From positions 23,362 through 82,295 of the forward strand of contig CAYUSU010000002.1 of the NCBI GenBank assembly GCA_964447525.1: a stretch of DNA of 58,934 bases, in the 5' to 3' direction. The position numbers and the translations under genes are program-made. Under the pieces are notes generated by a model that searched no databases, was not told the DNA's origin, and saw only the letters and a list, made by a program, of their open reading frames with translations. This DNA comes from an uncultured archaeon. Its GTDB lineage: Archaea; Aenigmatarchaeota; Aenigmatarchaeia; QMZP01; QMZT01. The number at the start of each line of letters is the position of its first letter. Position 1 is the stretch's first letter. Shown piece by piece: positions 2,919-58,226 of this stretch.

Positions 2919-3119
2919 TCACTTCTTTTCCCCTTTTACCGTAAGTATCCTCGCTATCGTTCTCCGAATCTCTTTTATCCTTCCCGGAGATATCACAGAA
3001 GCGCCTATGTGGATGTTGGCCTTTTCTTTGCTCATCTCCAGCCTCATCTCTTTCATATGCTTCCCCATCTCCTTCTCGTCCATTTTTCTGATATCCTTCA
3101 TTCGGAGTATGGCCATCAT
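2919..3119 (-). CDS. rpl29: 50S ribosomal protein uL29
   Basis: 66 aa, MAILRMKDIRKMDEKEM...RIKEIRRTIARILTV. There is a 4-nt overlap with the rps3 stop. Confidence 0.9.
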   Translation of the reverse strand: MMAILRMKDIRKMDEKEMGKHMKEMRLEMSKEKANIHIGASVISPGRIKEIRRTIARILTVKGEKK

Positions 3120-3772
3120 TTATCACTTTTTTCTGTTTTATTTTTCGTTTCCTTCTTTTTATCCGTTTTTTTCTCTTCCTGCGGAATGTCCTCGGCGATA
3201 ATAGGCGCTTTCATCATTATTTTTACCTTTATCCCGATCTTTCCCGGTCTCGTGCTCGCTTCCTTGAATCCGTGATTCACGAGTTCCTTTGCCGGTTGTC
3301 CGCAGTGTTTCAGGTAACCATCATTGAATTTTCCCATTCGCCCCTTGGAACCGCCGAGCTTTCCGGCCACTATTATTTCACAGCCAATCGCTCCGGCGCC
3401 CATTACCCTCTTGAGCATCACGTTTCCGATTTTCTTGTAGTTGTATCCGCTTTCCAATGCCGTGGCGATCTTTTTTGCCACTATGTTTGCGTCCAGATCG
3501 GCGGAGCGTATGCTCTTTACATCGATCTGTGGATTTTCAAGCTTGAACTCGGTCTTTAGTACGTCAGTCATTTCGTTTATCTTTCTCCCGCCTGCACCGA
3601 TTATTCTTCCCGGCCTGTCCGTATAAATTACGATTTTCACTCCAAGAGGGGTTCTCTCCAGTTCGATATCGGAATAGTTTTCGTTCGGGAAATTCTTACG
3701 GATGAAATCCTCTATTTGCATTTTCCTTGTGCTGTAATTCACGAAGAAGTTTTTCAGTAACATATCAATCAT
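3116..3772 (-). CDS. rps3: 30S ribosomal protein uS3
   Basis: 218 aa with a KH domain (GVKIVIYTDRPGRIIGAGGRKINEMT) plus the uS3 C-domain and a Lys-rich C-terminal tail. Overlaps the rpl22 stop. Confidence 0.9.
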   Translation of the reverse strand: MIDMLLKNFFVNYSTRKMQIEDFIRKNFPNENYSDIELERTPLGVKIVIYTDRPGRIIGAGGRKINEMTDVLKTEFKLENPQIDVKSIRSADLDANIVAKKIATALESGYNYKKIGNVMLKRVMGAGAIGCEIIVAGKLGGSKGRMGKFNDGYLKHCGQPAKELVNHGFKEASTRPGKIGIKVKIMMKAPIIAEDIPQEEKKTDKKKETKNKTEKSDK

Positions 3773-4152
3773 TTCTGAATGAGGACAACCTGTACGTTGG
3801 TCATCTTCCTTCTCATCCCCCTTAATTTCAGTCTTCTCGGCCTCATGAAACCGAAACCTTTGTGAGCCGAAGCGTAAATAATCATCCTGCTGGTATCCAG
3901 CCCCTTGAATTCAGCATTCGCTTCCGCAGAGCCTAACAATGAAAGGATTTCCTTTGTCGTGTTGGTATAATACTTGCCATTGAGACTCCTTTTCTTTAAC
4001 ATTATATCCTGAAGGAGAATCTTCCCTTTCTGAAGGTTTTTCTTGCTTATCGCCTTGCATACAGTCACTGAACTCTTTGTCGATATTCTAAGGGCTCTCC
4101 CGTAGACCTTTGCCGACTTCTTCGGGTTCAGTTTTAATGCGTATTGATCCAT
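3769..4152 (-). CDS. rpl22: 50S ribosomal protein uL22
   Basis: 127 aa, KSAKVYGRALRISTKSSVTVCKAI. It lies in the conserved slot between rps19 and rps3. Confidence 0.85.
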   Translation of the reverse strand: MDQYALKLNPKKSAKVYGRALRISTKSSVTVCKAISKKNLQKGKILLQDIMLKKRSLNGKYYTNTTKEILSLLGSAEANAEFKGLDTSRMIIYASAHKGFGFMRPRRLKLRGMRRKMTNVQVVLIQK

Positions 4153-4161
4153 TTATCCACC

Positions 4162-4548
4162 TTACTTCAGGGGCACGAACTTGCTTGATCTCGTTGCACC
4201 GAAACCAGGAGATGAATGTTGTACTCTTTTCCTCGTAGCGGCGAACTCGCCAAGCCTGTGCCCGAGCATCTCGGGTGATATTTCGAGAGCCACATATTCC
4301 TTCCCGTTGTGAACCCCGATCCTTTTCCCGAGCATTTCCGGAAGTATGATCATTTCCCTGCACGTGGTCTTGTGGAACTTTTCAGGCTTATCCCTTATTT
4401 TACCGAGGAACTTTTTCTGGGTTTCCGTCAGTCCCCTTGTTAGTGATCTCCTCATCCTGGAAGGGAGCATCTTGGAGAATTCATCTATGCTCATCTCCTT
4501 TATTTCTTCAAGGCCCTTTTTCCTGTAATTGAATTCTGCCATAATCAT
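4162..4548 (-). CDS. rps19: 30S ribosomal protein uS19
   Basis: [28 protein letters not shown] core. The track start at 4551 is GTG. The ATG at 4548 overlaps the rpl2 stop by 1 nt. Confidence 0.9.
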
Positions 4549-5222
4549 CACTTCCTTTTACCCTTTTTATATCCTGTTCTCTTGGCTCCCCATGAACCTA
4601 CCTTTGCTCCGGGTGGAGCGTGCTTGCTTACGGTAGTCGGTTTACCTGGTTTTGTCGGACCTCCGAAAGGATGGTCAACCGCGTTCATGGCCACGCCAGA
4701 TGTTCTTGGGTATAATTTCCCTCTCCTGTGCATGGCTATCCACTTCTTCCCTGCCTTCAGAAATGGTTTTTCTTGCTGTCCCCCACCTGCCGGAATGCCG
4801 ATGCTTGTCCTGCATTCTGCGTGAAGGGTTTTCTTCTGTTTTGAAGGCATCTGTATCACGCATTTCTTGCCGGCCTTGGATATCAGTGTCCCGAATGATC
4901 CGGATGTCCTGCACAATTTGGGGCCTGAATTGGGTGAGGACTCTATCGCAAAGACTGAAGTCCCTACCGGAGTGTTTGCGAGTGTGGATACAAATGATGA
5001 ATCATCACCTGTCTTGATTCCCAGAGGAGCTAATAGATAAGAATTACTACCGTCAGAATAACGGATTTTTGCTACGGGTGTGTTCCTCTTGGGATCGTTT
5101 ATTATGTCGACTACCTTTCCCTGAAGGTTTTTGTAGAGGATACTGATCTTTAGTCGCTTTTTTGGAGACCTGTAAGTAGGAGTTCCTCTTCCCCTTCTCT
5201 GCGATCTTAGTCGTCTTCCCAT
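4548..5222 (-). CDS. rpl2: 50S ribosomal protein uL2
   Basis: 224 aa with the [22 protein letters not shown] motif and an RRGRGT N-terminus. Confidence 0.95.
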
Positions 5223-25791: not shown

Positions 25792-26127
25792 ATGAAAAAA
25801 ATACTTTACACTGGTGACGTTTTAATAATTCCGTATGGACTAAACAAAGCTTTCACCGAATTTTCAAAAAGCCCGGATAAATATAAAATTTGGAGGGCAC
25901 CCTTCCCGCCTGATAGGGAAACCATAGAAAATTTCGATTTAACCATTGTGCATTTCAGAGAATATCCTTCTATTATTCAAGTTATGAACAGACTCGATAA
26001 AGACAATGAAAGTCCCGTTGTTTTCACGAGACCTGGCATTGAGGGAAGCGATATTAATACCAAGCCAAATTGTTATATTGTTGACGATGATTTACTTATG
26101 GAAAAAATTAATGAAATCCTTGGTTAA
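25792..26127 (+). CDS. hypothetical protein
   Basis: 111-aa ORF between the two kinase-like genes. No recognisable motif. Confidence 0.4.
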   Translation: MKKILYTGDVLIIPYGLNKAFTEFSKSPDKYKIWRAPFPPDRETIENFDLTIVHFREYPSIIQVMNRLDKDNESPVVFTRPGIEGSDINTKPNCYIVDDDLLMEKINEILG

Positions 26128-26600
26128 AAAATTTCATCCAGTTTTTCTTTCCATTTTCCCGTCGTATCCAGAACTATGTGATCTTCTTCGATGGGTTCCC
26201 ATTGGTCCTTTATTTTCTCGTAAACCAAAAAGTCCGCGTCTGATTCGTCACCCCTACCGTTACTGATCCTTTTCATGATCACTTCTTCCGGTGAGACGCA
26301 TTCGATAATCTTTAGCTCACTTCCGGTTTCCTTAGATATCCGGATAATCCTTTCCCTGAGCGACTTCCTGAAGAACGTCCCGTCAATGATCACGTTCTTC
26401 CCTTGACCCAAAGCCTCTTCAGCCATTACGAACAGTTCTCCATACACTTTCTTTTTTTCTTCTTCGGAATACTCTGGATATTTTATGATCTCTTTCCTGA
26501 TCACGTCCGTCCTCAGAACCAGTGCATTGATCTTGTCCTGGATATACCTTGCGGTGGTGCTTTTTCCCGTCCCCGGCAACCCGCAGATTAGAATCAACAT
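26124..26600 (-). CDS. P-loop kinase (AAA_33-like)
   Basis: MLILICGLPGTGKSTTARYI Walker A. At 158 aa the size and layout fit small nucleotide/sugar kinases. Confidence 0.75.
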   Translation of the reverse strand: MLILICGLPGTGKSTTARYIQDKINALVLRTDVIRKEIIKYPEYSEEEKKKVYGELFVMAEEALGQGKNVIIDGTFFRKSLRERIIRISKETGSELKIIECVSPEEVIMKRISNGRGDESDADFLVYEKIKDQWEPIEEDHIVLDTTGKWKEKLDEIF

Positions 26601-26919: not shown

Positions 26920-27059
26920 CCCACAGCGAGTTTTACACCCAATAATTCATGAGAATGATGCTTTAAATAAATAATTTTATTCGGGAGCAATATTATCATT
27001 TCTCATCTTCGATGTCGCTTCGCTGAAATGATATAATGCACCCTCATTAATTATCAAAC

Positions 27060-27821
27060 ATGAAATTAAATTTCCTTTCAGAAATTGAATTGAGCAAAAA
27101 GGATAAAGAGAAAGGTTTGGTGCTGCCTGATCAATTATCTGAAGATTTAGCTTACTTGTGTGGTGTGTTGGCTGGAGATGGTAATATCAATATCAGAAAA
27201 TGGAAATATGATTATGTAATTAAGTGTGTAGGAAACCCAAAAGATGAGGTTGAATATTATGATAAAATCATTAAAGATAAATTCTTGAAAGTTTTTGGAA
27301 TTCAAATTAATCCTAAATTACATGACAAAGGAACTACTTATGGTTTTAGTACATGGTCAAGAGCTTTGGTAAGATTTCTAACTGAAATTATAGGACTTCC
27401 TTCAGGAAAGAAATACGGAAAATTGAAAATCCCATCATTGTTTAAAGATAATGATTTATTCGTTGCATCATTTATCAGAGGTCTTGCTGATACTGATTTT
27501 AGTCTAATGTTCAAAAAAGGAAGTAAAAAGAATCCATATTATCCAGTGATTGTTGGAGTTTCTAAAAGTGAATCTTTTATGAGAGAGGTTATGAATCAAT
27601 TGAAAATCTTTGGTTTTTCCATGTATTTTGAGAAAAGAACATATTATGATAAAAGAGTTGAAAAAAACATTACAACCTATAGAATTTATCTGAATGGAGA
27701 AAAACAACTTGCTCTCTGGAATTCAAAAATTGGATTTGAACACCCAAAAAATCTGAATAAATTAAATATTCATGAGAAAAGAAAAAAAACAAAAATAGCG
27801 AGGGATGGAATTCCAGAATGA
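27060..27821 (+). CDS. double-motif LAGLIDADG homing endonuclease (free-standing)
   Basis: Two LAGLIDADG motifs are present, LAYLCGVLAGDGNI and FIRGLADTDFS. The ORF is visibly AT-rich relative to its flanks. Its last ~26 nt (27796..27821) overlap the tRNA-Met gene antisense. Confidence 0.85.
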   Translation: MKLNFLSEIELSKKDKEKGLVLPDQLSEDLAYLCGVLAGDGNINIRKWKYDYVIKCVGNPKDEVEYYDKIIKDKFLKVFGIQINPKLHDKGTTYGFSTWSRALVRFLTEIIGLPSGKKYGKLKIPSLFKDNDLFVASFIRGLADTDFSLMFKKGSKKNPYYPVIVGVSKSESFMREVMNQLKIFGFSMYFEKRTYYDKRVEKNITTYRIYLNGEKQLALWNSKIGFEHPKNLNKLNIHEKRKKTKIARDGIPE

Positions 27822-27845
27822 AACAGATTTTTTCTGTTTCAAGCC
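27810..27845 (-). other. predicted tRNA-Met intron D (36 nt, T-loop 59/60)
   Basis: Central helix TTCA/TGGA with bulges AAG and ATT. Internal 8-bp hairpin GAAACAGA/TCTGTTTC. It contains the LAGLIDADG stop codon on the other strand. Confidence 0.65.
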
Positions 27846-27861
27846 TTTGAACCATCGACCT

Positions 27862-27891
27862 TTCACCGAAACTGGCTTTCGCCAAATTTCT
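27862..27891 (-). other. predicted tRNA-Met intron C (30 nt, anticodon-stem/variable-loop junction)
   Basis: Removal restores CCCAG-AGGTC-GATGG. It is flanked by a 4-bp helix CACC/GGTG and inner GAAA/TTTC, with a TGGC-GAAA-GCCA hairpin. The 5' bulge is 4 nt, so the BHB is relaxed. Confidence 0.5.
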
Positions 27892-27897
27892 CTGGGT

Positions 27898-27932
27898 GTC
27901 CCACCGGAATAAGTCCGGTTACCTAGAGCCGC
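27898..27932 (-). other. predicted tRNA-Met intron B (35 nt, canonical 37/38)
   Basis: The central helix CCCA/TGGG reaches 4 bp only after intron A is removed. Bulges are TAG and ACA. There is an internal hairpin ACCGGA/TCCGGT. Confidence 0.55.
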
Positions 27933-27937
27933 TATGG

Positions 27938-27960
27938 TTCTGGTTTTGCATCCGCAAAAT
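27938..27960 (-). other. predicted tRNA-Met intron A (23 nt, 32/33)
   Basis: Textbook BHB: CTGG-[GCA]-TTTTGC(GGAT)GCAAAA-CCAG-[AAC]. Confidence 0.65.
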
Positions 27961-28020
27961 GCCCAGCGAGCACTCCAGGCTGCTCCACCTCGCTATGCTA
28001 TTCTAAATAGTGAATTGTGA

Positions 28021-28030
28021 TATTTATAAA
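28021..28030 (-). promoter_or_regulatory. TATA-box-like element upstream of tRNA-Met
   Basis: TTTATAAATA on the minus strand, -27 to -36 from tRNA nucleotide 1. Confidence 0.45.
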
Positions 28031-34282: not shown

Positions 34283-34374
34283 GCGCTGGTAGTCTAGTCT
34301 GGTAGGACACAGACATTAATGGATGGTGTATGCTTGCCAAGCCTGTAACCCGGGTTCAAATCCCGGCCAGCGCA
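34283..34374 (+). tRNA. tRNA-Gly (anticodon GCC at 34336..34338) with one intron in the anticodon stem
   Basis: Acceptor GCGCTGG/CCAGCGC. D arm GTCT/GGAC. T arm CCGGG-TTCAAAT-CCCGG. Removing 34313..34331 joins CAG+GC to give stem CAGGC/GCCTG and loop TTGCCAA. Confidence 0.85.
34313..34331 (+). other. predicted tRNA-Gly intron (19 nt, 29/30)
   Basis: BHB with central helix ACAC/GTGT (perfect), bulges AGA and ATG, and inner helix CAT/ATG. Confidence 0.75.
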
Positions 34375-35060: not shown

Positions 35061-35153
35061 ATATATAAAATATTTCCTTAATTCTATTATACAAACGAAC
35101 AACGCAGGTGTAAGCTGCGTTTCCAAGATACGCGGGGGTAGCCAAGTGGTCAA

Positions 35154-35188
35154 GTGTCTTCGTGCGTTCTAACGCACAGAGGGGCTAA
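35154..35188 (+). other. predicted tRNA-Leu intron 1 (35 nt, D-loop)
   Basis: Central helix GGTC/GGCT (two G:U) with bulge AAG on the 5' side and AAA on the 3' side. Internal hairpin GTGCG/CGCAC. The BHB is relaxed. Confidence 0.55.
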
Positions 35189-35197
35189 AGGCGATAG

Positions 35198-35232
35198 AAT
35201 GGTTTTGAACGCTGATTCAAGATGATGTCGTT
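35198..35232 (+). other. predicted tRNA-Leu intron 2 (35 nt, 30/31)
   Basis: Central helix CGAT/GTCG with bulges AGA and TTG. Splicing joins ATAG+G. Internal hairpin TTGAA/TTCAA. Confidence 0.7.
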
Positions 35233-35253
35233 GCTCAAGACCTATTCACTTAG

Positions 35254-35284
35254 AGCTTTTTGCCGTGAGGCGGATGGCAAGGAA
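35254..35284 (+). other. possible tRNA-Leu intron 3 (31 nt, variable-arm loop)
   Basis: Removal would leave a 15-nt variable arm T-CAC-TTAGT-GTG-TTC. The supporting helix CTT/AAG is only 3 bp plus a mismatch, so this is tentative. Confidence 0.35.
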
Positions 35285-35317
35285 TGTGTTCGCGGGTTCG
35301 AATCCCACCCCCCGCAT

Positions 35318-57248: not shown

Positions 57249-58226
57249 TTACAAATCCACATCAGTAATTTTTCCTATAATTATCCTATAGATGGCTTTT
57301 TGTTCACTTTTCTTTGATTTTGACTCGGCATAAGTCCCTTTGAATTTTGAAATGTATCTTTGTTTTTTATGATATTTTTTAATATTTTTAATAATTAGAT
57401 TTATCGTTTTATAGATTTGAATTAACTCCTTACAATCGCTTATTGTTGATGATACTAACTCTAACCCACCAAATTCATTAAAAAATACAATTATGTCAAT
57501 AAATGAGCCCTCTTGAATAACGGAAATTTTAAAATCAAAATAACCATCAATTTTTCTTGATAATTCAAAATGATTTTTTGATTTTATTTTCATTGTGAAT
57601 TTCTTTTCATTTGTAAATTGGTCACGTAAGGTTTGATAAGTAGCTTTAACACCTTCTCCAAGTATTTCAATTTTTATGTTACCAACATGCCAATATTCCA
57701 TTGTGGTAGAATAAGATTTTACTATCCACGCTTTCGGTATAAGTCCTAATGTGACTTTTATCAGTGAATAATTGTTATTTTCCTCTTTATAATTTTCTTT
57801 AAATTTTGATAAGAACTCTTTGGATAACTCGATAAGATCTTTTTTTGTTGAAGAAAAAACAATTTGTTTTGTATTGTTTAAATCACCCACATCAACTCTT
57901 TTTCTGAAGAATCTAATTTTATTTCCATAAGAATTCAATAAAAAATATAAAAAATCATACATTTTTTTATTTGCTAATGACAAAAAGACATTCTCTTGAT
58001 CTTTTTCCGAATAATAAGTAAGTATAATATTATAAATTTTTAGGATTGGGATGTTGAAAAGTTCACTGAGAATAACATATAATATTGGTATTAAGATTAT
58101 TATTAAAGAAATGGACAATAACGGATTTATTTGAAAAGTGAAACCTATTATGAGACCTAAAATAAATAATATAAGATCTTTAATTATGATTGCTTTCATT
58201 CTCCCACTCTCGCATATGAACGCCAA
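57249..58226 (-). CDS. hypothetical membrane-anchored protein in AT-rich island
   Basis: The track ORF starts at TTG, and an internal ATG (MKAIIIKDL) is the likely true start. There are 2-3 N-terminal TM spans, then a Lys/Ile/Asn-rich soluble part. I could not exactly reconcile my base counting with the track coordinates here (discrepancies of 1-2 nt), so track coordinates are used. Confidence 0.5.
   Translation of the reverse strand: MAFICESGRMKAIIIKDLILFILGLIIGFTFQINPLLSISLIIILIPILYVILSELFNIPILKIYNIILTYYSEKDQENVFLSLANKKMYDFLYFLLNSYGNKIRFFRKRVDVGDLNNTKQIVFSSTKKDLIELSKEFLSKFKENYKEENNNYSLIKVTLGLIPKAWIVKSYSTTMEYWHVGNIKIEILGEGVKATYQTLRDQFTNEKKFTMKIKSKNHFELSRKIDGYFDFKISVIQEGSFIDIIVFFNEFGGLELVSSTISDCKELIQIYKTINLIIKNIKKYHKKQRYISKFKGTYAESKSKKSEQKAIYRIIIGKITDVDL

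What the first reader, a model, noticed from the sequence alone, without database searches (positions are those of the whole stretch)
27060..27994. AT-rich free-standing LAGLIDADG endonuclease gene converging on and overlapping the multi-intron tRNA-Met
The 253-aa double-LAGLIDADG ORF is visibly more AT-rich than its neighbours. It ends inside the tRNA-Met gene on the opposite strand. Its stop codon (27819..27821) lies in T-loop intron D, and its last codons are antisense to the tRNA 3' exon (27796..27809). In archaea LAGLIDADG enzymes are classically carried inside BHB-type rRNA introns, and tRNA introns have been proposed to be mobile. Physical coupling of a homing endonuclease to the most intron-laden tRNA in the window therefore suggests one of two scenarios. 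The enzyme may target tRNA genes, or it may be a remnant of an intron-borne element. The 8-bp hairpin GAAACAGA/TCTGTTTC in intron D lies just downstream of the ORF stop on the ORF strand.
Basis: partly seen in the sequence, partly recalled or inferred. Interest (0 to 1): 0.65.

Follow-up and report, generated by a model that had tools for sequence, protein, structure and literature searches.

The report
Homing endonuclease gene parked beside initiator tRNA
A selfish DNA-cutting enzyme gene sits tail-to-tail against a four-intron initiator tRNA gene, and in about 60 other tiny-archaeon genomes its relatives sit beside the same tRNA gene, which then nearly always carries unusual introns. This gives a testable idea of why archaeal tRNA genes collect introns.

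Summary
ORF 27060-27821 (+) encodes a 253-aa two-motif LAGLIDADG enzyme. Both catalytic Asp are kept, the AF2 model has pLDDT 92.9, and the best structural matches are intein nuclease domains, I-Tsp061I and I-DmoI. Its GC is 0.29 against 0.43 for the window. Its last 26 nt overlap, antisense, a 199-nt gene (27994-27796, -). Removing four introns from that gene gives a perfect 75-nt archaeal initiator tRNA-Met. ARAGORN and Rfam miss it.

The coupling is not chance. In 56 of 57 evaluable genome loci that encode this family, mostly DPANN archaea, the initiator tRNA gene lies next to the ORF (47 convergent, 9 other layouts). Paralogues sit beside tRNA-His, Phe, Ser and Lys genes.

The gene is sporadic. 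Only 12 of 61 tRNA-anchored metagenome loci carry it, and syntenic empty sites and frameshifted copies exist.

Linked initiator tRNA genes almost always have an intron between positions ~43/44 and 53/54 (45/48, against 4/85 unlinked).

Best reading: a free-standing homing endonuclease that homes at the initiator tRNA gene, with the introns splitting its target site. This is inferred; cleavage is untested. The "intron-borne remnant" idea is not supported.

The parts
27060..27821 (+). Free-standing LAGLIDADG homing endonuclease gene, 253 aa
   Evidence: ORF list. Profile against PDB hits an intein nuclease domain, I-DmoI and I-Tsp061I at E about 1e-7. AF2 pLDDT 92.9. Foldseek hits TliVMA intein, I-Tsp061I and I-DmoI. 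163 homologues at 45-75% identity.
27147..27182 (+). LAGLIDADG motif 1 (LAYLCGVLAGDG), catalytic D40
   Evidence: Invariant G39-D40-G41; D in 93/95 aligned family members.
27462..27500 (+). LAGLIDADG motif 2 (VASFIRGLADTDF), catalytic D146
   Evidence: Invariant D144-T145-D146; D/E in 98/98.
27030..27037 (+). Possible TATA box (GATATAAT) about 26 nt before the ATG, which would give a leaderless mRNA. Inference only.
   Evidence: Read from the sequence; not tested.
27796..27994 (-). Initiator tRNA-Met gene with four introns (199 nt; mature tRNA 75 nt)
   Evidence: Spliced alignment. ARAGORN calls the spliced product tRNA-Met(CAT). Precursor fold z = -4.47. Homologous gene in L001.
27961..27994 (-). 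tRNA exon 1 (positions 1-32)
27938..27960 (-). Intron A, 23 nt, at 32/33
   Evidence: 4/4 central helix and 4/4 inner helix in BHB register; conserved in L001.
27933..27937 (-). tRNA exon 2 (C33-A37, includes anticodon CAT)
27898..27932 (-). Intron B, 35 nt, canonical 37/38
   Evidence: Central helix is 4/4 once intron A is removed (plus hand check on the sequence); compensatory hairpin changes against L001.
27892..27897 (-). tRNA exon 3 (A38-G43)
   Evidence: Boundary set by requiring the C27:G43 pair and a 5-nt variable loop.
27862..27891 (-). Intron C, 30 nt, at 43/44. Relaxed BHB; boundary uncertain by about 2 nt.
   Evidence: GAAA-tetraloop hairpin kept in L001 through compensatory changes.
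27846..27861 (-). tRNA exon 4 (A44-A59)
27810..27845 (-). Intron D, 36 nt, T-loop 59/60. Contains the ORF's last three codons and stop codon in antisense. Absent from L001.
   Evidence: 4/4 central and 4/4 outer helix.
27796..27809 (-). tRNA exon 5 (U60-A73), antisense to ORF codons I246-G250
27796..27821 (.). 26-nt convergent overlap of ORF and tRNA gene
   Evidence: The same kind of overlap occurs in 38 of 48 convergent loci, median -19 nt.
27820..27840 (.). 8-bp hairpin GAAACAGA/TCTGTTTC, the inner helix of intron D. On the + strand its loop and 3' arm supply a T6 run (27828-27833) right after the ORF stop codon, a possible terminator for the ORF transcript.
   Evidence: Sequence; stem present in the MFE fold. 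The terminator role is inferred.
27770..27795 (-). T-rich tract directly after the tRNA 3' end (archaeal-type terminator). Its antisense encodes the Lys-rich ORF tail EKRKKTK.
   Evidence: Sequence; function inferred.
28021..28030 (-). TTTATAAATA, TATA box 27-36 nt upstream of the tRNA 5' end
   Evidence: Sequence; a similar element is upstream of the L001 tRNA.

Best explanation
The ORF is a free-standing, probably active, monomeric two-domain LAGLIDADG homing endonuclease gene. Its home is the flank of the initiator tRNA-Met gene.

Shown:
- The fold, both motifs and both catalytic Asp.
- Near-obligate adjacency of this family to the initiator tRNA gene, in three different layouts.
- Paralogues beside other tRNA genes.
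- Sporadic presence among related loci, with syntenic empty sites.
- Lower GC than the host.
- A few frameshifted copies.
- A strong association with introns in the variable-loop / 5' T-stem segment of the linked tRNA.

Inferred:
- The enzyme recognises about 20 bp of the uninterrupted, highly conserved initiator tRNA gene, probably around positions 38-57, and cuts alleles that lack the endonuclease gene.
- Repair from a carrier allele copies the endonuclease gene into the flank, together with the adjoining part of the tRNA gene.
- The resident tRNA gene is immune because bulge-helix-bulge introns split the recognition sequence in the DNA. The splicing endonuclease removes them from the RNA, so the tRNA stays functional.

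The convergent overlap is a by-product of tight packing. The ORF's last 16 or so codons, its stop codon and a T6 run are the antisense of the tRNA terminator, the 3' exon and intron D.
For: Enzyme.

Adjacency: the protein-pattern genome scan did not use tRNAs as a search criterion, and it found 255 species with a relative. Of 57 evaluable main-family loci, 56 have the initiator tRNA adjacent:
- 47 convergent
- 3 ORF->tRNA->
- 5 tRNA->ORF->
- 1 with an ORF in between
47 of 51 spliced products were confirmed as tRNA-Met.

Paralogues: beside tRNA-His, Phe, Ser-GCT and Lys-CTT.

Sporadic distribution: in 120 metagenome loci retrieved with a tRNA 5' pattern alone, 12 carry the gene next to the tRNA and 49 with at least 800 nt on both sides do not.

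Empty sites: L009 against L149 (without) share flanking genes at 63-84% identity. RNase HII directly abuts the tRNA in L163, L165, L181 and L157, whereas carriers have the ORF in between. 12 of 24 non-carrier loci have a carrier as nearest RNase HII relative.

Decay: frameshifted copies in L070 (a complete genome), L060 and L081.

Composition: GC is lower than the flanks in 72/77 loci (0.303 vs 0.366).

Decoupling from host: ORF identity is uncorrelated with RNase HII identity (rho 0.09).

Introns:
- 45/48 convergent carriers have an intron in Q42-55 against 4/85 non-carriers.
- Metagenome set alone: 11/12 against 9/49 have a non-canonical intron, p = 4e-6.
- RNase HII-syntenic subset: 22/24 against 3/24, p = 4e-8.
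- The introns fit BHB register far above a displaced control, 79/168 against 4/168.
Against: - No cleavage, expression or population-level polymorphism data exist. No RNA runs were found, and four salt-marsh DNA runs showed no variant alleles.
- Three intact carriers (L006, L010, L031) sit beside intron-less initiator tRNA genes.
- The tRNA-His, Phe, Ser and Lys genes beside the paralogues are intron-less. Intron immunity therefore cannot be the general rule.
- ORF similarity does not track intron pattern (rho 0.05, p = 0.12).
- Most copies are intact and deeply diverged (about 45% identity). This also fits long vertical persistence with losses.
- The family was not found on viral contigs.
- The window holds another multi-intron tRNA (35132-35316) with no endonuclease gene beside it, so this lineage gains tRNA introns anyway.
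- The Fisher tests are not corrected for shared ancestry.
Confidence: 0.6

Rival explanations
1. A domesticated LAGLIDADG protein with a host function tied to the intron-rich initiator tRNA. It could be a maturase-like chaperone that helps the multi-intron precursor fold for splicing, or a DNA-binding factor acting on the tRNA gene.
For: - Strong purifying selection, and almost all copies are intact.
- The protein is present where the tRNA has non-canonical introns.
- Structural matches include the LAGLIDADG maturases bI3 and I-AniI.
Against: - Both catalytic Asp are kept; in known pure maturases or regulators they are often lost (own knowledge).
- tRNA genes with the same T-arm introns exist with no adjacent ORF: L147, L148, L123, L133.
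- Orientation relative to the tRNA varies.
- Paralogues sit next to intron-less tRNAs.
- Composition is AT-skewed.
- Frameshifted copies lie next to apparently intact tRNA genes.
Confidence: 0.15
2. An old insertion kept by synteny and now neutral or inactive as a mobile element. The link with introns reflects shared ancestry: lineages with a broad-specificity splicing endonuclease have both.
For: - Pairwise identities are all about 45%, star-like.
- There is some clustering of carriers in RNase HII similarity: 25 of 27 carriers have a carrier as nearest neighbour.
- DPANN and Hadesarchaea are already known for disrupted tRNA genes (PMC5829648).
- The window has another multi-intron tRNA with no ORF beside it.
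Against: - Within the RNase HII-syntenic group the intron contrast persists, 22/24 against 3/24.
- Close pairs differ in both ORF and T-arm intron: L009/L149, and L081/L148 with about 90% DNA identity upstream.
- The three layouts and the paralogues beside different tRNAs argue for repeated insertion.
- Catalytic residues are under selection.
Confidence: 0.15
3. A remnant of an intron-borne endonuclease gene, meaning the ORF once lay inside a tRNA or rRNA bulge-helix-bulge intron.
For: The closest characterised relatives, I-Tsp061I and I-DmoI, are encoded in archaeal rRNA introns.
Against: - In every locus the ORF is outside the tRNA gene, and in 48 loci it is on the opposite strand.
- No exon lies beyond it.
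- The best sequence matches are equally to intein nuclease domains.
Confidence: 0.03
4. Chance juxtaposition in a compact genome.
For: Genes are tightly packed and overlaps are common.
Against: 56 of 57 evaluable loci from many lineages show the same partner tRNA.
Confidence: 0.01

Closest known systems
I-DmoI / I-Tsp061I / I-PorI: archaeal rRNA-intron-encoded monomeric LAGLIDADG homing endonucleases
   Same: Two-motif single-chain LAGLIDADG fold with an acidic residue in each motif. Best characterised sequence and structure matches.
   Different: Those enzymes are encoded inside bulge-helix-bulge introns of rRNA genes and home into the intron-less rDNA site. This ORF is free-standing, outside and mostly antisense to a tRNA gene. 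Sequence identity is only 14-19%.
Intein-associated LAGLIDADG nuclease domains (TliVMA, PI-PfuI, PI-SceI)
   Same: Top profile and Foldseek hits; weak NCBIfam hits to intein-containing proteins.
   Different: There is no Hint/splicing domain and no host protein. The ORF is an independent 253-aa protein.
Free-standing homing endonucleases with 'collaborative' (trans) homing: F-CphI with the psbA group I intron, and mobE (reviewed in PMC3984707)
   Same: The endonuclease gene lies outside the intron and next to the gene it is proposed to cut. The neighbouring gene carries an ORF-less intron that would interrupt the target and give immunity.
   Different: Those are phage systems with self-splicing group I introns and other nuclease families. 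Here the introns are protein-spliced archaeal BHB introns in a tRNA gene of a cellular genome. Intron positions vary, and the cleavage site is unknown.
Phage T4 SegB, a free-standing GIY-YIG endonuclease in the tRNA gene cluster (own knowledge)
   Same: A free-standing homing endonuclease whose gene sits among tRNA genes and which cuts in a tRNA gene region of a competitor genome.
   Different: Different nuclease family, a phage context, and no introns involved.
Randau-Soll hypothesis: tRNA introns and split tRNA genes protect against integrating elements, for example SSV attB sites (PMC4090602)
   Same: Introns in tRNA genes are seen as protection of a conserved DNA target against a selfish element.
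   Different: That idea concerns integrase-mediated virus or plasmid integration. The review does not contain the word 'homing'. Here the proposed attacker is a LAGLIDADG endonuclease encoded right next to the tRNA.

Membership tests
LAGLIDADG homing endonucleases (single-chain, two-motif) | Two LAGLIDADG motifs, each with a catalytic acidic residue | tested here: met
   D40 and D146 are invariant in A1; D in 93/95 and D/E in 98/98 across 100 family ORFs.
LAGLIDADG homing endonucleases (single-chain, two-motif) | Tandem alpha-beta-beta-alpha-beta-beta-alpha domains | tested here: met
   AF2 pLDDT 92.9 with that order of elements. Foldseek E from 6e-10 to 1e-7 to TliVMA, I-Tsp061I, I-DmoI and I-AniI.
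LAGLIDADG homing endonucleases (single-chain, two-motif) | Passes the curated sequence model (Pfam PF14528 LAGLIDADG_3) | tested here: inconclusive
   The window protein scores 22.1 bits against a cut-off of 22.5. Many homologues and paralogues pass. The family profile hits LAGLIDADG enzymes in PDB at about 1e-7.
LAGLIDADG homing endonucleases (single-chain, two-motif) | Site-specific double-strand DNA cleavage | not testable with these tools
   Needs protein expression and an in vitro assay.
LAGLIDADG homing endonucleases (single-chain, two-motif) | Mobility signature: sporadic presence at a fixed site, empty sites, decaying copies | tested here: met
   12 carriers against 49 non-carriers in tRNA-anchored loci. 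Syntenic empty sites. Frameshifted copies. GC lower than flanks in 72/77 loci.
Archaeal intron-encoded homing endonucleases | ORF lies inside a bulge-helix-bulge intron, on the sense strand | tested here: not met
   The ORF is outside the tRNA gene in all loci and antisense in 48.
Collaborative (trans) homing systems | Free-standing endonuclease gene next to an intron-containing target gene | tested here: met
Collaborative (trans) homing systems | Endonuclease cleavage site coincides with the intron insertion site, so the intron confers immunity | tested here: inconclusive
   45/48 linked tRNAs have an intron within about 43/44-53/54 against 4/85 unlinked. However, the cleavage site is unknown, three carriers have intron-less tRNAs, and the paralogues' tRNAs are intron-less.
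Archaeal initiator tRNA-Met (the partner gene) | CAU anticodon, A1:U72, three G:C pairs at the base of the anticodon stem, cloverleaf | tested here: met
   The spliced product AGCGAGG...CTGGGCCCATAACCCAG...CCTCGCTA is called tRNA-Met by ARAGORN.
Archaeal BHB tRNA introns | Two 3-nt bulges separated by a 4-bp helix at the splice sites | tested here: met
   Introns A, B and D have a 4/4 central helix (and hand check). Intron C is relaxed. Family-wide, 79/168 against 4/168 in the displaced control.

The most novel reading that the evidence does not exclude
tRNA-targeting homing endonucleases are a selective force behind non-canonical tRNA introns in DPANN and Hadarchaeota archaea. Any insertion that splits the enzyme's site in the tRNA gene, and can still be removed by a broad-specificity splicing endonuclease, is favoured in carrier genomes and is co-converted into new genomes with the endonuclease gene. 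This would be a DNA-level arms race that explains the rapid gain, loss and shifting of introns in the 3' half of the initiator tRNA gene. It would give Randau and Soll's 'introns as protection' idea a concrete attacker.
Probability: 0.3. Interest if true: 0.9.

Novelty: new variant of a known kind. Interest (0 to 1): 0.78.

Why it matters
How archaeal tRNA genes acquire, move and keep introns at non-canonical positions is an old open question, as is why tRNA genes are disrupted at all. Here a large family turns out to be tied to specific tRNA genes and to introns in one short segment of the initiator tRNA. The family comprises 390 clusters at 50% identity at E<=1e-30 and is annotated only as 'hypothetical' or as generic LAGLIDADG.

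That gives a simple experiment: cleavage of intron-less against intron-containing alleles. The result could connect selfish DNA endonucleases with tRNA intron evolution.

It also provides enzymes with a probably very conserved natural target. And it flags multi-intron initiator tRNAs that standard tRNA finders miss in DPANN genomes.

I found no paper describing this association in the held library.

Tried and rejected
- ARAGORN and Rfam, at both gathering and E-value thresholds, do not detect the window tRNA or other multi-intron tRNAs. I replaced them with a spliced-alignment script, whose products I checked with ARAGORN.
- RNA-seq: no runs listed.
- Population variants: contigs of four salt-marsh DNA runs show only the window allele. 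The loose ends at 27961 belong to other organisms' initiator tRNAs.
- Viral contigs: no relative found.
- Search for ORF remnants in non-carrier loci: this gave only artefacts, because one query ORF (L030) reads antisense through a whole tRNA.
- Test of whether ORF similarity tracks the intron pattern, which would indicate co-transfer as a unit: not significant (rho 0.05, p = 0.12).
- Specificity-determining positions between the iMet-type and His-type proteins, and strand against helix conservation: uninformative.
- Exact BHB register for the '43' class of introns: not found (0/19). The boundaries there are ambiguous or the motifs are relaxed.
- A tRNA-Ser(GCT) internal control was abandoned, because the consensus is too degenerate for the spliced aligner.
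- NCBIfam gives no specific family name.
Full report
**1. The observation**

The ORF at 27060-27821 (+) is real and encodes 253 aa.

- It carries two LAGLIDADG motifs: LAYLCGVLAGDG at aa 30-41 and VASFIRGLADTDF at aa 135-147.
- Pfam alone is borderline (LAGLIDADG_3, 22.1 bits against a cut-off of 22.5).
- A profile of 30 homologues hits the nuclease domain of the Thermococcus VMA intein, I-DmoI, I-Tsp061I and PI-PfuI at E from 1e-7 to 1e-3.
- An AlphaFold model built on that alignment is confident (pLDDT 92.9, pTM 0.90). It shows two alpha-beta-beta-alpha-beta-beta-alpha halves.
- Foldseek places the model among single-chain LAGLIDADG enzymes.
- The ORF's GC is 0.291 against 0.434 for the window. 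That is the second lowest of 55 ORFs of at least 150 aa.

**2. The tRNA**

ARAGORN and Rfam do not call anything at 27796-27994. The minus strand starts AGCGAGG and ends CCTCGCTA.

A spliced alignment to an initiator tRNA consensus gives five exons and four introns:

- intron A, 32/33: 27960-27938
- intron B, 37/38: 27932-27898
- intron C, 43/44: 27891-27862
- intron D, 59/60: 27845-27810

The 75-nt product is called tRNA-Met(CAT) by ARAGORN. It has the archaeal initiator marks A1:U72 and a GGG/CCC anticodon stem. It has C33 instead of U33, as do many relatives.

Introns A, B and D have a perfect 4-bp central helix in bulge-helix-bulge register. Intron C is relaxed and its boundary is inferred. 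The precursor folds better than shuffles (z = -4.47).

The closest relative is L001, a Ca. Aenigmatarchaeota MAG whose ORF is 73% identical. Introns A-C are homologous there, with compensatory changes in their hairpins. L001 has an extra D-loop intron and lacks intron D.

A TATA box (TTTATAAATA, 28030-28021) lies upstream of the gene and a T-run (27795-27770) follows it.

- The stop codon lies in intron D.
- Codons 246-250 are antisense to the 3' exon.
- The 8-bp hairpin (27820-27827 / 27833-27840) is the inner helix of intron D.
- On the + strand this hairpin supplies a T6 run just after the stop codon.

**3. The coupling is conserved**

The protein has 163 homologues at 45-75% identity in the word-indexed search, mostly from Woese-, Pace-, Aenigm- and Nanoarchaeota. 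A full profile search finds 390 clusters at 50% identity at E<=1e-30.

A genome scan based on protein patterns, which knows nothing about tRNAs, found relatives in 255 species and returned 80 loci. I aligned the initiator consensus, allowing introns, to the flanks of each ORF. Background scores were 10-45 and hits scored 68-120.

Of the 62 main-family loci, 5 end too close to the ORF to judge. The other 57 break down as follows:

| Layout | Loci |
|---|---|
| Convergent, ORF-> <-tRNA, as in the window | 47 |
| ORF-> tRNA-> | 3 |
| tRNA-> ORF->, within 340 nt | 5 |
| tRNA 834 nt upstream with a small ORF between | 1 |
| No initiator tRNA adjacent (L021) | 1 |

- 47 of 51 spliced products are called tRNA-Met by ARAGORN.
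- In the convergent class, the ORF's reading frame overlaps the tRNA gene in 38 of 48 cases, with a median of -19 nt.
- Several homologues end in ...IAEGGVP-like tails, which are simply the antisense of the acceptor stem.

More distant paralogues (35-40% identity) sit directly upstream of other tRNA genes:

- tRNA-His: seven loci
- tRNA-Phe: L075, L080
- tRNA-Ser(GCT): L053, second copy
- tRNA-Lys(CTT): L090, L122

Some genomes have two types (L003/L080, L004/L071).

**4. It behaves like a mobile gene**

I retrieved 120 metagenome loci with a pattern from the 5' 28 nt of the initiator tRNA only.

- Only 12 have a family member next to the tRNA. 49 with at least 800 nt on both sides have none.
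- The only recurrent neighbour is RNase HII, found in 26 of the 80 genome loci.
- In 24 metagenome loci with the same RNase HII-tRNA neighbourhood the ORF is absent. RNase HII often abuts the tRNA at 7-180 nt, exactly where carriers have the ORF.
- Half of these non-carriers have a carrier as their nearest RNase HII relative.

Two close pairs are informative.

- L009 (carrier) and L149 (non-carrier) share flanking genes at 63-84% identity. DNA homology stops inside the tRNA and resumes at RNase HII.
- L081 (frameshifted carrier, intron at 53/54) and L148 (non-carrier, intron at 59/60) are about 90% identical from the promoter to tRNA position ~53. They differ in intron and downstream flank.

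Further signs of mobility:

- Frameshifted copies occur in L070 (a complete genome), L060 and L081.
- The ORF is AT-richer than its flanks in 72 of 77 loci.
- ORF identity does not track RNase HII identity (rho 0.09).

**5. Link with introns**

| Set | Intron in Q42-55 (about 43/44 to 53/54: variable loop and 5' T-stem) |
|---|---|
| Convergent carriers | 45/48 |
| Metagenome non-carriers | 4/85 |

- Linked initiator tRNA genes carry 2.25 introns on average, against 0.34 for unlinked ones.
- Within the metagenome sample alone, non-canonical introns occur in 11/12 carriers against 9/49 non-carriers (p = 4e-6).
- Within the RNase HII-syntenic group, the figures are 22/24 against 3/24 (p = 4e-8).
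- The called introns fit bulge-helix-bulge geometry far more often than a displaced control, 79/168 against 4/168.

These tests are not corrected for shared ancestry. The tRNA-anchored sample cannot contain tRNAs with introns in the first 28 nt.

**6. Interpretation**

The simplest account is a free-standing homing endonuclease whose target lies in the highly conserved initiator tRNA gene. The gene cannot sit inside the tRNA, so it sits against it.

Carrier alleles would be immune because introns split the site, most likely around the variable loop and T-stem. Repair of cut alleles would copy the ORF and the adjacent, intron-bearing part of the tRNA.

This mirrors intron-less and 'collaborative' homing of free-standing phage endonucleases (PMC3984707). 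It gives a concrete attacker for the idea that tRNA introns protect conserved tRNA genes from selfish elements (PMC4090602). It also fits the fact that DPANN and Hadesarchaea have splicing endonucleases linked to heavy tRNA disruption (PMC5829648).

Weak points:

- No cleavage or expression data exist.
- Three carriers have intron-less tRNAs.
- The paralogues' tRNAs are intron-less.
- ORF similarity does not follow intron pattern.
- The family is old and mostly intact.
- The window has another multi-intron tRNA (35132-35316) without such a neighbour.

Rivals I keep open are a domesticated maturase-like or regulatory role, and vertical persistence with lineage-confounded introns. The 'remnant of an intron-borne element' reading is contradicted by the layout in every locus.

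**7. Novelty**

The enzyme class is known, and so is the free-standing lifestyle. Three things appear to be new:

- the near-obligate parking next to specific tRNA genes in archaea;
- the diversification of paralogues onto different tRNAs;
- the association with protein-spliced tRNA introns.

I found no description of this in the held literature. I rate it a new variant of a known kind, of high interest because one cleavage assay would test it.

Noticed in passing
L061, L063, L069, L071, L074, L076, L079 (about 3560-4770 in each): A paralogous subfamily (35-40% identity) lies directly upstream of an intron-less tRNA-His gene on the same strand. These ORFs are 343-407 aa with an N-terminal extension of about 120 aa that has no Pfam match. 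The open frame often reads through the whole tRNA-His gene.
   Followed up: partly
L053 2279-2914 and tRNA-Ser(GCT) 2920-3004; L164 4547-5152; L075/L080 (tRNA-Phe); L090/L122 (tRNA-Lys CTT); L049 6989-7699; L038 33-671; L044 6519-7166: Further paralogues sit within a few nt of other tRNA genes, sometimes as a second copy in the same locus as the iMet-type gene. L153 has the ORF sandwiched between two tRNA genes.
   Followed up: partly
window 35132-35316 (+) and 34283-34374 (+): Two more disrupted tRNA genes. The first is a 185-nt gene with GCGGGGG...CCCCCGCA ends and several insertions. The second is a 92-nt gene that ARAGORN types differently with and without intron mode (Pro-TGG or Gly-GCC). 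Neither has a LAGLIDADG gene beside it.
   Followed up: no
window 57249-58199 (-): A 316-aa ORF with the lowest GC in the window (0.244) and no Pfam match. It is possibly another foreign gene.
   Followed up: no
window 27937-27933 (anticodon loop), L002, L004, L007, L010, L013, L014, L032 and many of L083-L196: These initiator tRNAs have C33 instead of the near-universal U33 (loop CCCAUAA). From my own knowledge this recalls some eukaryotic initiators.
   Followed up: no
L149 about 1268-1400: A tRNA-Leu(TAA)-like gene with an insertion in the T-loop lies between the initiator tRNA and RNase HII in the non-carrier allele. It is absent from the carrier relative L009, which instead has a 199-aa membrane-like ORF (3207-3806) plus the endonuclease gene.
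   Followed up: partly
L030 3992-4807: The open frame of this homologue runs antisense through the entire initiator tRNA gene (4701-4803). This produces spurious protein 'hits' to every initiator tRNA gene in translated searches.
   Followed up: yes
L017, L025, L036 (Hadarchaeota bins); L008 (Omnitrophota bin, 2.9-kb contig): Family members with the same four-intron initiator tRNA occur in bins labelled Hadarchaeota, outside DPANN. One short contig is binned with a bacterium and is probably misbinned.
   Followed up: no
window 26124-26600 (-): The gene two genes upstream of the ORF is a small P-loop kinase of the AAA_33 / KTI12-like type. KTI12 relatives act on tRNA. No link to the finding was tested.
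   Followed up: no
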